Of a DNA stretch of 64,000 nucleotides, positions 3,607-53,315 are shown in pieces. Made by a program: the position numbers and the translations under genes. Every line of letters begins with the position of its first letter. The stretch's first letter is position 1. The DNA lies in contig CM035362.1 of assembly GCA_020137815.1 (NCBI GenBank), positions 5,766,001 through 5,830,000 of the forward strand. The letters run 5' to 3'. Source of the DNA: Hormiphora californensis. Its lineage: Eukaryota; Animalia; Ctenophora. Under the pieces are notes generated by a model, which made no database searches, was not told where the DNA came from, and worked only from the letters and a program-made list of their open reading frames with translations.

Positions 3607-6600
3607 GTAAATTTGGCCGGTAAAGCACAGTATGATGACGACATTTACGGAACCCCGGGCATGTAAGTGTATCAATAATTAGCGTTAATTATCTATTATT
3701 AGCAGTAATAAGGGCATGTAAGTATTGATAATTAGCGCTAATTATCTATTATTAGCAGTAATAAGTATTTGGGAGGGGCATTTGTAAAGTGAGTGGCGGT
3801 CGGGTAGATTTCAGACTTTATTCCCGTCAATCGTCATCTAGGAAGACGGAGGGCGGTTGTCCTGCAAATCTTAGAATGATACACTCCTAGCTCAATCCCC
3901 CCTCCCCCCCCCCCCCCCCGTTACACGTTTCACTCTACTTCTCAGATGCCATTGTCTCTGCCCCTCATCTTCGTAATCCCCACCCTGTGTGGACGTCTTG
4001 TGGCTCACCCCCCTCATCTTCTTAATCCCCACCCTGTGTGGACGTCTTGTGGCTCCCCTCATCTTCTTAGACCCCACCCTGTGTGGCTCACCCCCCCCCC
4101 TCATCTTCTTAATCCCCACCCTGTGTGGCTCACCCCCCCCTCATCTTCTTAATCCCCACCCTGTGTGGACGTCTTGTGGCTCACCCCCCTCATCTTCGTA
4201 ATCCCCACCCTGTGTGGACGTCTTGTGGCTCACCCCCTCATCTTCGTAATCCCCACCCTGTGTGGACGTCTTGTGACTCGCCCCCCTCATCTTCTTAATC
4301 CCCACCCTGTGTGGACGTCTTGTGGCTCACCCCCCTCATCTTCGTAATCCCCACCCTGTGTGGACGTCTTGTGGCTCACCCCCCCCCCCCCTCATCTTCG
4401 TAATCCCCACCCTGTGTGGACGTCTTGTGCCCCCCCTCATCTTCGTAATCCCCACCCTGTGTGGACGTCTTGTGGCTCACCCCCCTCATCTTCTTAATCC
4501 CCACCCTGTGTGGACGTCTTGTGGCTCACCCCCCTCATCTTCTTAATCCCCACCCTGTGTGGACGTCTTGTGGCTCACCCCCCTCATCTTCGTAATCCCC
4601 ACCCTGTGTGGACGTCTTGTGGCTCACCCCCCCTCATCTTCGTAATCCCCACCCTGTGTGGACGTCTTGTGGCTCACCCCCCTCATCTTCTTAATCCCCA
4701 CCCTGTGTGGACGTCTTGTGGCTCACCCCCCCTCATCTTCTTAATCCCCACCCTGTGTGGCTCACCCCCCCCCCTCATCTTCTTAATCCCCACCCTGTGT
4801 GGACGTCTTGTGGCTCACCCCCCTCATCTTCTTAATCCCCACCCTGTGTGGACGTCTTGTGGCTCCCCCCCCCCTCATCTTCTTAATCCCCACACTGTGT
4901 GGACGTCTTGTGGCTCACCCCCCCTCATCTTCTTAATCCCCACCCTGTGTGGCTCACCCCCCCCCCTCATCTTCTTAATCCCCACCCTGTGTGGACGTCT
5001 TGTGGCTCACCCCCCTCATCTTCTTAATCCCCACCCTGTATGGACGTCTTGTGGCTCACCCCCCTCATCTTCTTAATCCCCACCCTGTGTGGACGTCTTG
5101 TGCCCCCCCCCCTCATCTTCTTAATCCCCACCCTGTGTGGACGTCTTGTGGCTCACCCCCCTCATCTTCTTAATCCCCACCCTGTGTGGACGTCTTGTGG
5201 CTCACCCCCCCCCCCTCATCTTCTTAATCCCCACCATGTGTGGACGTCTTGTGGCTCACCCCCCTCATCTTCTTAATCCCCACCCTGTGTGGACGTCTTG
5301 TGGCCCCCTCATCTTCGTAATCCCCACCCTGTGTGGACGTCTTGTGACTCACCCCCCTCATCTTCTTAATCCCCACCCTGTGTGGACGTCTTGTGGCTCA
5401 CCCCCCTCATCTTCGTAATCCCCACCCTGTATGGACGTCTTGTGGCTCACCCCCCTCATCTTCTTAATCCCCACCCTGTGTGGACGTCTTGTGACGTCAC
5501 AAGTCTGCCCCCATTTTCAGGAGTAAAGGACAGTATAATCGGACCCTGGACAAAACTCCCGGACCGGCAGACGATGATGATTTTGGTAAAACTCCGGATC
5601 ACATGAGTAGCGCTGGTGGCTTGGCTGGGTTTAAAGATGATGCAGCCAAAGCGGGACATGTGAGTGTGCAATTAATGATAGAAATAGAGAGTGAGACAGA
5701 GAAAGTGAAAGAGATAGAGGGAAGAGAGGGAGTAAGAGAGGGATATTTGCAAGTTTGGGTTTTCTTCCCGTTTTCTTCCTTGAATAAATGTACTCACTTC
5801 ACAATCTTCCACAAATGTTTCATTTTCCCAGGGTGCAGCAGACGACCCGTTTGCGGAGACGCGTCGGAAGAGGATCATTGACAGACAGAATGAGTATCAG
5901 CAGAGATTCCGGAACATGCTCATTTCACCTGCACGTGCTGATGTCTTTGCAGGTAATACTTCGGGGGGGGGGGGGGGGGGTATGCGGGGTCAGTTGGACC
6001 CCTCATTTCACCTGCACGTGCTGATGTCTTTGCAGGTAATACAGTTGGACCCCCCGATTTACCGGGATGATCCGCCCCCCCCCCAATGTACCTCGTGGTG
6101 CTAGAAACCCCATATTTAGTGTGGCATTGTTGAGTGATAGTCAAGAGACCCATATCACCGTTTTTGGGTTATTACCCTACCCTGTATCACTCACCCATGG
6201 CTACCCAGTGTTTGGTTGATTGTCACATGACACGTGTCTTTGCAGATGGTGGAAAGACGCCCGATCCCGCTCACAGGACTTATAGTGACGTTATGAAGGA
6301 GAGTAGGATCGCTAAAGATCAACACGCTATAAGGTATGTGAATAAGTGATACATTTTAGGAAATAGGAAGTAGACTACTTCAAGTAGTTTGTGTATATGA
6401 TGTGTATATGATGTGTATGAAGGTCAAGTACCTATTATTTCTGACACATAACCCATCTCCCTTTCTTCACATCATCTCCCAAACCTCGCAAAACCCTCGC
6501 TCTGTCAGGAGTCAGATCTCAGAAAAGAGAAAGGAGGGGACTCTAGCAGTAGCACCTGAGCAGCCCAAGAAGAAAAGGAGATGGGATGTTGGTGGAGTGG

Positions 6601-50800: not shown

Positions 50801-53315
50801 CTCCTCGCAACCGTGAGTAGAGCACTCTCCGGGACAAGGACCATCAACAATACTCACTCAATATATGTTTCTGTCCTATCGTTGGGAATTGGGAGAAGTG
50901 TGGCGGGTCCAATTTTAACTCTCAGTCGTCTACCAAGCTGAATCATTGTGTTCACAAACTCCCTTATCCTAAAGAGAATTAGAAATTGTTGTACACAACG
51001 AAATGAGTAGACTCATTTGTCCAGCTGGAAGGAGAAAACAAAACTTCCTCACTGAATTAGAAACTGTTGTACACAAAACTATCATTTTTCTTTTTTAACA
51101 TCCCTTCTCATGATAGTGTGCCCGTGTAATTATTTTTATATGGCTTACAAGCGACAAGGACTTGAGAAACGACATTCCAATGTCAATTAATTGTTTTAAT
51201 TAGTTAATTAATTGTTACCTTTTCTCATCCCTCTGTAAAAAGATGATGATCCAATTGTCAATGTTTTTAGGAAGAATGGGAGGTGCCTCAACATTAAATT
51301 CACCTTTCTCATCTATCTGTGGGGGTGGAGGAGGGGGTGGAGGAGGGGTGGGGGTGGGGTGGAGGAGGGAGTTAGATATTATATCTTGAATTCTATACGA
51401 ACTGTAACTGTTAAAATGATGGGATTACAAAATCATCAAATGTTTTGTGAAACGTGATCCCAGGAACCGACCGAATTAGGAAATACTGGTCCCTGATTGG
51501 CTGATAACCGGTCACATGACCTAAATAACGAGTTCTGATTGGTTGTTTACATGTGTCAGATCCCCTACCTGAGTTATCTGATCCTTGTGTGCACCAAACA
51601 TGAGCTGTTCATTGTGAATGTGCCGCGCCTCAACCTTCAGTGATTCCTCCTCTGCAAGAGAACATCAAATTGTTAAAATTATTGTAATCATTGTAGCGGG
51701 TTGCCAAGCTAGACTGTGTTTCGGGCGCCCCGCCTCCGAATCACAGGGAGGGTTAGAATATAACAAAGTAGCGGGATAATTTAATCTGGATTCTAGCCTG
51801 TGACACCACTATTAACTCGTAAAATATACGATTAAGTTGACAACAGTACAACCCGAACCTGATGGCCATCTAACTAACCAATTAACTAATTACCCAATTA
51901 CCTATTGATATACTCCACTTCTCAAGTTCAGTCTTGGCCTCCACTGACCCATTAACATTTGATATAAAATCCTGGAGAGATTTCATCCGCTCCGCTGGAT
52001 CTAATCTCGTATGTCTGGATATATCCTTCTTGGCCACGATATCACTTTTAGTGCTCATGGAGAGTCCTGGAAGATATCACTTTTAGTGCTCATAGAGAGT
52101 CCTGGAAGATATCACTTTTAGTGCTCATAGAGAGTCCTGGAAGATATCACTTTTAGTGCTCATAGAGAGTCCTGGAAGATATCACTTTTAGTGCTCATGG
52201 AGAGTCCTGGAAGATATCACTTTTAGTGCTCATAGAGAGTCCTGGAAGATATCACTTTTAGTGCTCATGGAGAGTCCTGGAAGATATCACTTTTAGTACT
52301 CATGGAGAGTCCTGGAAGGAATTTTCAAAGAAATGGAAGATGGGTTGTACCTCTTACGTTTAAATGGTGAGCCCTGGTATCGGTGTCCTATTAAACAGGA
52401 TATAATGACACCACGTTACCACCTAAATATCACAAGGGTGGCCCCTGAGAAAATGATATGTAGAAACTAGAAACGATATATACCTGTTAGTGCACATAAC
52501 TCTGGTACAAGATATATCGTCCTTCTCTCCCCAGATCCACCTCGTGCCTCCTTAGCACTGTGAACAAGTCAATGAGATAGTGTTTATTTGGGACTGCAGA
52601 CAACTCGGAGATTTTATTTTAGGGAAACCATAATCAGTTAGCTGATAATATACTCTGTTTCGTGAAAATGGGACCCATAATAATTCTACTGATCTGAACA
52701 AGACACCCCCTCCGTCGGCAGGTATCCATAACTTACTGATGCACAAGAAGTGACCCCCCCCCCCCCCGACTGGTCCATAACTTACTAATGGTCCATAACT
52801 TACTAATGACCCCCGGCAGGTATCCATAACTTACTAATGCACAACAAGTGGTTGATCCCCCCCCCCGGCTAGTCCATAACTTACTAATGTACTAGAAGGG
52901 GTTGACCCCCCCCCCCCCCCCCCCCGGCAGGTCTATAACTTACTAATGCACAACAAGTGGTTGATCCCCCCCCCCCCCCCGGGCAGGTATCCATAACTTA
53001 CTAATGTACAACAAGGCCCCCTGACAGATATACATAACTTACTAATGCACAACAAGGCCCCCCCCCCGGCTAGTCCATAACTTACTAATGTACAAGAAGT
53101 GGTTGATCCCCCCCGGCAGGTATCCATAACTTACTAATGCATAAGAAGGGGTTGGTCCCCATCCTTGATATGTATCCCATAGGCTGTCCTGTAATACTCC
53201 AAATAACTTGTCTCTACACCCCGTCTATCCGGCACTTTACAGGAGGGTGTTTGGGTCCAATCAATGCCGTCAACCCTGTATGTCTTTGTGTTGTATCTTG
53301 TCATTACAACTTGAC
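41854..53315 (-). CDS. PIWI: Piwi-clade Argonaute (PAZ, MID, PIWI); visible exons approx. 53315-53135, 52557-52484, 52066-51902, 51651-51569, 51316-51219, 50968-50858, 45365-45153, 44643-44541, 44372-44267, 44075-43968, 43256-43149, 42978-42889, 42460-42380, 42012-41854; N-terminal exons apparently beyond 64000
   Basis: Spliced translation gives VMTRYNTKTYRVDGIDW, YLEYYRTAYGIHIKDGDQPLL, YLVPELCALTG, DDRYSAIKQLC, KLGGALWTV, MVVGIDAYHD, VVFRDGISDG, NPLPGTVLD, DFYLVSQ..KGTVSPTHY and YKLTHLYYN..GTVRVP..C.YAHKLA...KLFYL*. Confidence 0.95.
42152..42260. mobile_element. hAT-type MITE (about 110 bp); other copies at 40861-40969, 10899-10998 and 51461-51557 (partial)
   Basis: TIR caggaaccgaccga/tcggtcggttcctg; 8-bp TSD ctacagag. 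The 40861 copy has gatgagac/gatcagac. Confidence 0.85.
43311..43618 (-). mobile_element. Non-autonomous Helitron in a Piwi intron
   Basis: The minus strand starts A|TC and ends CTAG|T, with subterminal hairpins cccggcgaagccggg and gcgcacccaatgggtgcgc. No TSD. Confidence 0.7.
45311..50346 (-). repeat. 88-bp tandem array (about 57 copies) of the Piwi 3' splice site plus the first 56 nt of the exon
   Basis: Sense unit cag|TATGATAGACCGATACCTGGATGACAGCGTTCAAATGGTTGTAACAGTTGTCCCAAgtgtcacaataacaccctctccccctact, encoding MIDRYLDDSVQMVVTVVPS. Confidence 0.95.
52039..52318 (-). repeat. 35-bp x8 array of a Piwi acceptor plus exon start
   Basis: cttccag|GACTCTCCATGAGCACTAAAAGTGATAT repeated; only the last copy continues into the exon. 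Confidence 0.9.
52720..53150 (-). repeat. Degenerate array (about 9 copies) of a Piwi exon end plus donor
   Basis: Sense ..GCATTA|gtaagttatggatacctgccggggg repeated. Confidence 0.85.

What the first reader, a model, noticed from the sequence alone, without database searches (positions are those of the whole stretch)
3657..53150. Pervasive splice-junction echoes: introns carry tandem duplicates of their own exon-intron boundary
Seen at a dozen or more junctions. SF3B1 donors: 3657/3712, 5919/6003, 9698/9731, 9961/10115, 20960/21094/21167, 39568/39612. SF3B1 acceptors: 11355 vs 11477, 19520 vs 19578, 27459/27529 vs 27622, 39666/39841/39961 vs 40049. Kringle acceptor: 7348 vs 7288 (60 bp, in frame). 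Piwi: 52039-52318 (x8), 52720-53150 (about x9), 45311-50346 (about x57). In each case the exon-proximal copy is the functional one. The first PRODH intron also starts with a near-copy of the next exon's start (CAG|GTAAACCT ... TAG|GTAAATCT), the signature expected from intron gain by tandem duplication. Inference: a lineage-specific mechanism seeds tandem repeats at splice junctions and drives intron growth, junction sliding and new intron birth.
Basis: partly seen in the sequence, partly recalled or inferred. Interest (0 to 1): 0.8.

Follow-up and report, generated by a model that had tools for sequence, protein, structure and literature searches.

The report
Comb-jelly "mirage" repeats at splice junctions
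About one in seven splice junctions in this comb-jelly DNA has been copied into the neighbouring intron, a repeat type already known from lancelets and humans, and the copies differ from the working exon almost only at silent codon positions, which likely means they are young and were shaped by exchange between alleles.

Summary
In a ctenophore window, 13 of 91 junctions carry an exon-edge copy in the adjacent intron, against 0 expected from foreign introns; my curated list has 14. Short-read contigs hold the copies, and copy number differs between haplotypes, so they are real, polymorphic repeats. The class is known: amphioxus 'mirages' and the human F7 intron-7 VNTR. This scan has also noted it in urchin, abalone and annelid DNA. 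It is therefore not lineage-specific.

Junction-crossing excess is 1.0-3.6 fold depending on the null, so a targeted mechanism is not shown. Intron-only arrays do hug junctions (14 of 30 within 15 nt, 6.3 expected).

New here: copy and working exon differ at 15 silent and 4 replacement sites, like two alleles and unlike a drifting copy. Intron growth is shown; sliding and intron birth are not, and the PRODH signature is only 7 of 8 nt. No RNA tested use of an echo site. New member of a known kind; interest 0.4.

The parts
3607..40834 (+). SF3B1 host gene, 28 exons in the window (exon numbers below count from 3607; the true first exon is not in the window)
   Evidence: open frame; homologs
3657..3765 (+). 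exon 1 donor copy, 55-nt unit x2, only 6 exon nt (weak)
5919..6042 (+). exon 3 donor copy, offset 83, 34 exon nt identical
6235..6245 (+). working acceptor of SF3B1 intron 3, identical over 11 nt to the end of the upstream exon (5942-5952); candidate exon-end copy now used as a splice site
   Evidence: 0 of 1892 foreign pairs reach 11 nt
7110..7636 (-). two-exon kringle gene nested in an SF3B1 intron
7260..7352 (-). kringle acceptor copy, offset 60, in frame without a stop; 2 silent differences
9693..9765 (+). exon 7 donor copy, 37-nt unit x2 in a 183-nt intron; 2 silent differences
9961..10148 (+). exon 8 donor copy, offset 154 across a microsatellite; 1 silent difference
11267..11520 (+). 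exon 11 acceptor copy, offset 122; 1 silent difference
19500..19619 (+). exon 15 acceptor copy, 58-nt unit; 2 silent differences
20958..21196 (+). exon 16 donor copies at offsets 134 and 207 (the second cut before the donor); 2 silent differences
27450..27631 (+). exon 22 acceptor, two short copies (about 7 exon nt; weak)
39567..39636 (+). 25-nt copy of the exon 25 end just inside the intron, donor not included; 1 silent difference
   Evidence: spanned by a 237-nt short-read contig without differences
39655..40088 (+). exon 26 acceptor, three copies; one contig of another sample skips the nearest
41853..53315 (-). PIWI host gene, 14 exons modelled (5' exons not located)
45312..50345 (-). PIWI acceptor array, 88-nt unit (about 34 intron + 54 exon nt), 58 cores
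52038..52318 (-). PIWI acceptor array, 35-nt unit x8 (6 intron + 29 exon nt); shorter alleles in another sample
52716..53160 (-). PIWI donor array, 10 cores with irregular 18-59 nt spacing; shorter alleles in the same and in another sample
2157..2270 (+).

Best explanation
These are 'mirage' repeats: short tandem duplications of exon-intron boundaries that vary in copy number between haplotypes and likely persist because splicing keeps using the copy next to the exon. Steps. (1) Inferred: 35-155 nt tandem duplications arise often throughout a very polymorphic genome with compact introns (median 181 nt once arrays and transposons are removed). (2) Inferred: those inside exons are purged, while those crossing an edge leave the spare copy in the intron and are close to neutral. 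(3) Inferred from frames: the spliceosome takes the exon-proximal site by position (first donor met, or pairing across the exon), since the spare sites have the same sequence. (4) Shown as polymorphism, mechanism inferred: unequal crossing-over expands and contracts some into VNTRs, lengthening introns by up to 5 kb. (5) Shown: spare and working copies differ mainly at silent sites. Inferred: the copies are young, and allelic recombination or gene conversion, at birth or afterwards, has set allele-level differences between them. (6) Inferred: repeats at intron ends outlast those in intron middles, which are deleted or replaced faster.
For: 13 of 91 junctions against 0 expected; 0 of 100 exon-interior comparisons. 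Real DNA: X1 contig 39556-39792 without differences, and X5 contig 39602-39805 from another sample. Copy-number variation: joints 39950>40048, 52068>52318, 52569>53074, 52703>52970 and 53021>53123, and an X6 contig carrying about two 35-nt units. Crossing counts fit compact-intron nulls: 14 observed against 9.2-13.1 expected, and strict 11 against 7.2-13.1, P 0.07-0.85. A 45-nt repeat also spans the kringle stop codon, a coding edge that is not a splice site. 15 silent against 4 replacement differences in 409 exon nt, P 4e-7 to 5e-6 against a freely drifting copy; the allele differences that read laying listed in exons are 32 of 37 silent. Intron interiors differ grossly between alleles (X6: 369 nt replaced by 259 other letters). 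Precedent for silent spare donors: PMC1557585 (abstract); for mirages: PMC3087553 (passages).
Against: Against the unmasked null the crossing excess is 2.9-3.6 fold (P <= 6e-4), and 1.9 fold (P 0.0035) with transposons masked. Intron-only arrays lie within 15 nt of a junction in 14 of 30 cases against 6.3 expected within their own gap, which plain uniform mutation does not predict; the survival step that would explain it was not tested. No RNA crossed an echo site (X7 laid nothing on 51575-53345). In introns under 250 nt the human rule favours the sites closest across the intron (PMC9225289), which here would be the spare sites in the 174-nt and 183-nt introns. Event lists and masks were curated by hand on one window that was picked for this feature.
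Confidence: 0.55

Rival explanations
1. The duplications are born at exon edges. Exons are the islands of homology between alleles whose introns differ by large indels; repair or recombination that uses the homologous chromosome would run out of homology at the edge, abort, and be joined by end-joining, leaving a piece of the other allele's junction beside this one.
For: Silent-site pattern at allele level (dS about 0.14, dN about 0.013; 11 silent and 0 replacement in the eight two- or three-copy SF3B1 and kringle events). Arrays cluster at intron ends. Allelic introns diverge grossly; high intronic indel heterozygosity is reported for a pleurobrachiid genome (PMC8527503, passages). Inter-homolog end joining, aborted gap repair and tandem duplication occur at mouse meiotic hotspots, mostly without ATM (bioRxiv 10.1101/2020.06.23.168138, passages).
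Against: Later gene conversion of the working exon would give the same silent pattern without any bias at birth. The exon 3 copy and some PIWI 35-nt copies are identical to their exon. The crossing excess vanishes under compact-intron nulls. I could not check whether the spare copies' variants segregate at the working exon: the variant tables were cut.
Confidence: 0.28
2. The repeats are kept or expanded by selection because they multiply splice signals (branch-point-like and C-rich motifs before acceptors, G runs after donors) or tune expression through unproductive splicing.
For: Arrays before acceptors are mostly C-rich with branch-point-like motifs, several after donors are G-rich. Spare donor 9-mers equal the true donor in the junction-spanning copies scored.
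Against: Alleles with fewer or no spare copies exist. The same polarity is present in ordinary intron ends, so copying local sequence gives it for free.
Confidence: 0.07
3. One reading: a lineage-specific machine that seeds repeats at junctions and drives junction sliding and new intron birth.
For: High density (about 15% of junctions). PRODH intron 1 has the best boundary repeat of 44 introns (12 of 16 nt). The SF3B1 intron 3 acceptor equals the upstream exon end over 11 nt.
Against: Same structures in amphioxus and human. PRODH intron 1 has no similarity to its exons beyond 8 nt. SF3B1 aligns to lobate ctenophore orthologs at 89% with 9-11 gap openings, so no large junction shift has been fixed. 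Intron positions in relatives could not be read.
Confidence: 0.06
4. Assembly artefact: the two alleles of an exon end were written in tandem, which would also give silent-only differences.
For: Differences look allelic. The window has error-like features (indels in the 88-mer copies, a receptor gene split over three frames, a 99.96% identical 2244-nt duplicate).
Against: A single 237-nt short-read contig holds exon end, donor and two copies without a difference, and another sample holds the same copies; repeated 35-nt units appear in X1 and X6 contigs. Only 4 of the 14 sites were laid against reads.
Confidence: 0.04

Closest known systems
Amphioxus 'mirages' (Adh3, globins BflGb6/BflGb9, troponin C, PGBD5); PMC3087553 and PMC3902484, passages read
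   Same: Tandem copies spanning 5' or 3' exon-intron boundaries, units of tens to about 160 nt, intact AG/GT in many copies, copy number differing between haplotypes, and a proposed link to intron gain.
   Different: Here in a ctenophore, counted across 91 junctions of five genes. The silent-site bias is not mentioned in the passages I read (the word 'synonymous' does not occur in the main text of PMC3902484; I did not search PMC3087553 for it, and the original Adh3 papers and all supplements were not read). RT-PCR support exists in amphioxus, none here.
Human F7 intron-7 37-bp VNTR; PMC1557585, abstract and outline read
   Same: First unit spans the exon-intron boundary; identical downstream donors stay silent and the most upstream donor is used.
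   Different: One locus, donor side only. Here half of the cases are acceptors, where the most downstream copy must be used, which 5'-to-3' scanning does not explain.
Intron gain by tandem duplication of an AG|GT site (Rogers model); PMC3265369 and PMC2891723, passages read
   Same: PRODH intron 1 sits at an AG|GT site.
   Different: The model duplicates exon sequence and predicts an intron resembling its exons; this intron does not. The mirages here duplicate existing junctions and create no new intron.

Membership tests
Mirage repeats (features as in PMC3087553) | Tandem duplication whose unit spans an exon-intron boundary | tested here: met
   13 of 91 junctions against 0 expected; arrays. 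One of the 14 curated cases (39612) stops short of the donor.
Mirage repeats | Both donor and acceptor boundaries affected; units about 10-160 nt | tested here: met
   7 donor-side and 7 acceptor-side cases; nearest-copy offsets 35-154 nt
Mirage repeats | Many copies keep AG/GT splice signals | tested here: met
   Donor 9-mers identical in the spanning copies; acceptor scores 4.6-16.2 against a true-site median of 11.5
Mirage repeats | Length instability between haplotypes | tested here: met
   Joints and contigs in X1, X5, X6 at 3 arrays; several joints are marked 'between: not known'
Mirage repeats | No interference with normal splicing | tested here: inconclusive
   Frames require the exon-proximal site; RNA contigs crossed no spare site
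Mirage repeats | Somatic instability | not testable with these tools
   Needs single-molecule reads from one animal
Intron gained by tandem duplication (PRODH intron 1) | AG|GT at the spliced junction | tested here: met
   Junction reads CAG|GT
Intron gained by tandem duplication (PRODH intron 1) | Intron resembles the flanking exons | tested here: not met
   8-nt match only; score against the exon 1 end below the shuffle mean; 21% against 49% GC. Old age could have erased it.
Intron gained by tandem duplication (PRODH intron 1) | Intron absent in orthologs | not testable with these tools
   Only proteins of relatives were available, and some calls span several of our exons, so they say nothing on introns

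The most novel reading that the evidence does not exclude
Mirages are scars of repair between homologous chromosomes that fails where homology ends, at exon edges. In very polymorphic animals this would make exon-intron boundaries mutational hot spots that import the other allele's junction. It would explain why mirages turn up in polymorphic marine invertebrates, and occasionally supply a new working splice site (candidate: the SF3B1 intron 3 acceptor). It would also mean that ctenophore splicing picks sites across the exon even in 170-190 nt introns.
Probability: 0.25. Interest if true: 0.7.

Novelty: new member of a known kind. Interest (0 to 1): 0.4.

Why it matters
PMC3087553 calls the mechanism that generates mirages unclear. 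A dense, polymorphic set in a ctenophore extends the class to an early-branching animal lineage (no ctenophore report surfaced in searches; subscription papers are not covered). The silent-site pattern gives a simple genome-wide way to date the copies and to ask whether they come from the homolog. Identical competing splice sites in short introns of an essential gene are a natural test of exon against intron definition. In practice such copies mislead gene prediction and read mapping.

Tried and rejected
No whole genome was held, so the genome-wide test could not be run. A metagenome scan with the high-copy ~100-nt element returned one 1229-nt contig, mostly a single reading frame, of no use for counting. 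RNA: X7 gave only a contig that stops matching 3 nt past the donor at 39605 and one that joins across PIWI intron 44076-44266; it laid nothing on 51575-53345, and X8 laid 2 unrelated pieces; neither absence is evidence. The idea that PRODH is intronless in relatives was dropped, because other calls from the same source span several of our exons. A first synonymous count by gapped local alignment (27 silent, 20 replacement) included overrun alignment ends and spurious hits at the two weak sites; it was replaced by maximal ungapped segments on 12 events, leaving those two out. Even the first count exceeded the drifting-copy expectation (P 3e-6), but only at P 0.015 against the two-copy model. 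Fifteen null variants were run; all are summarised, none dropped. Left out of the event counts: microsatellites, repeats inside transposons, the repeat over the kringle stop, two borderline donor copies of about 11 nt (22477, 45110), a PIWI exon 6 match inside a hairpin, and everything beyond 53400. Translated use of the spare exon pieces as the cause of the silent bias was considered and judged unlikely: apart from the kringle case they lead into stops. An initial PIWI exon 44132-44371 was corrected to 44267-44371 (RNA joint). No earlier notes exist for this genome, and none matched the silent-site wording.
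Full report
Setting. No whole genome was held. The nearest PRODH and SF3B1 relatives include Bolinopsis microptera, Mnemiopsis leidyi and Pleurobrachia bachei proteins. The window's SF3B1 is 89% identical to the first two over its length and 97% to a 147-residue Pleurobrachia piece. 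The animal is a ctenophore, likely close to Pleurobrachia; I did not establish the species. Exon models read through as open frames for SF3B1, PIWI, PRODH, the kringle gene and a DSL/EGF gene, giving 91 junctions and 44 introns.

Observation. All listed copies are in the sequence. An objective gapped search finds a copy at 13 of 91 junctions at a score that no foreign intron reached, and at 15 of 91 at a looser score (0.18 expected); 0 of 100 exon-interior comparisons hit. My curated list has 14 events, 7 donor-side and 7 acceptor-side: 12 strong and 2 with only 6-7 exon nt. One of the 12 (39612) copies the exon end without the donor.

Real and polymorphic. Runs X1-X4 probably come from the assembled sample; X5 and X6 are one other sample. 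A 237-nt X1 contig spans exon 25, its donor and two copies with no difference, and an X5 contig covers 39602-39805 with two differences. Joints show shorter alleles: 39950>40048 in X5; 52068>52318 in X5, which would leave a single 35-nt unit; an X6 contig with about two units and a different intron interior; 52569>53074 in X1; and two skips in the PIWI donor array in X5. Several joints are marked 'between: not known', so allele structures are approximate. Only 4 of the 14 sites were laid.

Is there a junction bias? I placed each event's unit at random on the array-collapsed sequence, rejecting placements inside exons. With 14 crossing among 30 events of 19 nt or more, the expectation is 3.9 on all non-coding DNA, 7.2 with transposons masked, and 9.2, 10.5 and 13.1 with gaps capped at 400, 250 and 150 nt (P from <1e-5 to 0.42). 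Counting only 11 strict events gives P 6e-4, 0.07, 0.28, 0.49 and 0.85. The answer depends on how much of today's intron existed when the duplications arose. A conserved exon template also keeps a copy recognisable for longer (inference). A separate signal is firmer: 14 of 30 intron-only arrays lie within 15 nt of a junction against 6.3 expected within their own gap, and 19 within 30 nt against 11.0 (both P about 3e-4). Biased birth and biased survival both predict this, and I cannot separate them. Lists and masks are hand-made, on a window chosen for the feature.

Which copy works. In the junction-spanning donor copies the 9-mer equals the true donor, and most spare acceptors score within the range of true ones. 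Using a spare site gives a premature stop in every case tried except the kringle acceptor, which would add 20 residues in frame. The exon-proximal site is therefore needed for the conserved protein, and the choice must rest on position. For donors this matches the human F7 VNTR (PMC1557585, abstract). For acceptors it needs pairing across the exon or decay of mis-spliced RNA (inference). In human data, introns under about 250 nt favour the pair closest across the intron (PMC9225289, abstract and passages), which would pick the spare site in the 174-nt kringle and 183-nt SF3B1 introns. No RNA contig crossed a spare site, so this is untested.

Taking the best-scoring copy of each of the 12 strong events (409 exon nt), copy and exon differ at 15 synonymous and 4 non-synonymous sites. 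A freely drifting intronic copy would give 23-28% synonymous (P 4e-7 to 5e-6); a drifting copy plus silent change in the exon would give 38-43% (P 3e-4 to 2e-3). All distinct variants give 19 to 6. The eight two- or three-copy SF3B1 and kringle events give 11 to 0. Exonic differences between alleles listed by read laying are 22 of 27 silent in PIWI and 10 of 10 in SF3B1 (those tables were cut to the best-supported rows). The copies have thus gathered few mutations of their own (dN about 0.013) yet differ from their exon as alleles do (dS about 0.14). I infer that they are young and that allelic exchange is involved, either because the copy was taken from the homolog or because the working exon was later overwritten by other alleles. 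A cruder first count was 27 to 20.

Intron growth, sliding, birth. Growth is direct: the 88-nt array adds about 4980 nt to one intron. PRODH intron 1 has the best boundary repeat of the 44 introns, but a 7-of-8 match is expected in one of 44 with P about 0.045, and the intron is AT-rich and unlike its exons. It fails the resemblance feature of the tandem-duplication model (PMC3265369, PMC2891723, passages), and presence in orthologs could not be tested. A better lead is SF3B1 intron 3, whose last 11 nt equal the last 11 nt of the upstream exon (0 of 1892 foreign pairs). This could be a spare exon end now serving as acceptor, or a chance match of two pyrimidine-CAG ends.

Comparison. Earlier notes of this scan led me to the name 'mirage', which I checked in PMC3087553 (passages of the abstract, section 16 and legends) and PMC3902484 (one passage). 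Amphioxus genes carry tandem copies of donor and acceptor boundaries, 10-160 nt units, unstable in number, apparently harmless to splicing, of unclear origin, and already proposed as a source of introns. The structures here meet the four sequence-level features; splicing neutrality is inconclusive and somatic instability untestable. PMC8527503 (passages) reports for a pleurobrachiid genome 3.2% heterozygosity, raised intronic indel rates, 13% tandem repeats and many nested genes; the passages seen do not mention junction copies. PMC6142364 (passages) was background only. Supplements were not read and may bear on whether the silent-site pattern is in print.

Verdict. A real, dense and polymorphic set of mirage repeats in a ctenophore: new member of a known kind. 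The most likely account is frequent duplication filtered by selection, with allelic exchange and longer survival at intron ends (0.55). Birth at exon edges by failed repair from the homolog is a serious rival (0.28). A lineage-specific engine of intron birth is not supported. Interest 0.4.

Noticed in passing
window 1278-3156 and 3607: PRODH appears to lie on the same strand inside the first SF3B1 intron: SF3B1 residues 1-33 are not in the window, Bolinopsis has the two proteins under adjacent accessions on one contig, and a Mnemiopsis model fuses them at this point.
   Followed up: partly
window 6235-6245 and 5942-5952: The working acceptor of SF3B1 intron 3 equals the upstream exon end over 11 nt; possible recycled copy.
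   Followed up: partly
window 7023-7141 and about 8570-8660: A 45-nt repeat x2.6 spans the kringle stop codon, a coding edge that is no splice site; a degenerate second copy of the kringle 3' end lies about 1.5 kb away.
   Followed up: partly
window 14356-17990 (-), 32475-33960 (-): Genes nested in SF3B1 introns: an LDLa plus 7TM receptor split over three overlapping frames (assembly errors or pseudogene) and a DSL/EGF membrane protein.
   Followed up: partly
window 22698-25799 (-): LINE with an open 1033-codon endonuclease/reverse transcriptase frame inside an SF3B1 intron, flanked by similar sequence at 22611-22684 and 26411-26486.
   Followed up: no
window 12563-14050, 29505-32554, 53595-56850: Large inverted-repeat elements whose arms are made of 10-, 62- and 32-nt tandem arrays.
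   Followed up: no
window 34590-39312: 2244-nt tandem duplicate at 99.96% identity ending in a 680-nt hairpin; very young or an assembly duplicate.
   Followed up: no
window 10904-10997, 40860-40970, 42152-42262, 51460-51557: A ~100-nt element with four copies in the window and a summed contig depth about 10,000 times that of neighbouring bins (the tool warns this is no copy number). One copy starts 3 nt after an SF3B1 donor.
   Followed up: partly
window 50541-50614: A 74-nt hairpin holds a match (score 17) to the PIWI exon 6 end and donor, about 250 nt into the intron; junction copy or chance match to a mobile element.
   Followed up: no
intron-end arrays, e.g. 20052-20803, 22212-22333, 19789-20016, 42558-42873: In transcript orientation, arrays before acceptors are mostly C-rich with branch-point-like motifs and several after donors are G-rich, on both strands.
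   Followed up: partly
window 59334-60835 and 62539-64000: A 306-nt exon-plus-intron unit repeated about five times (sushi-like by cysteine pattern, label recalled and not scanned), with a second diverged gene copy downstream.
   Followed up: no
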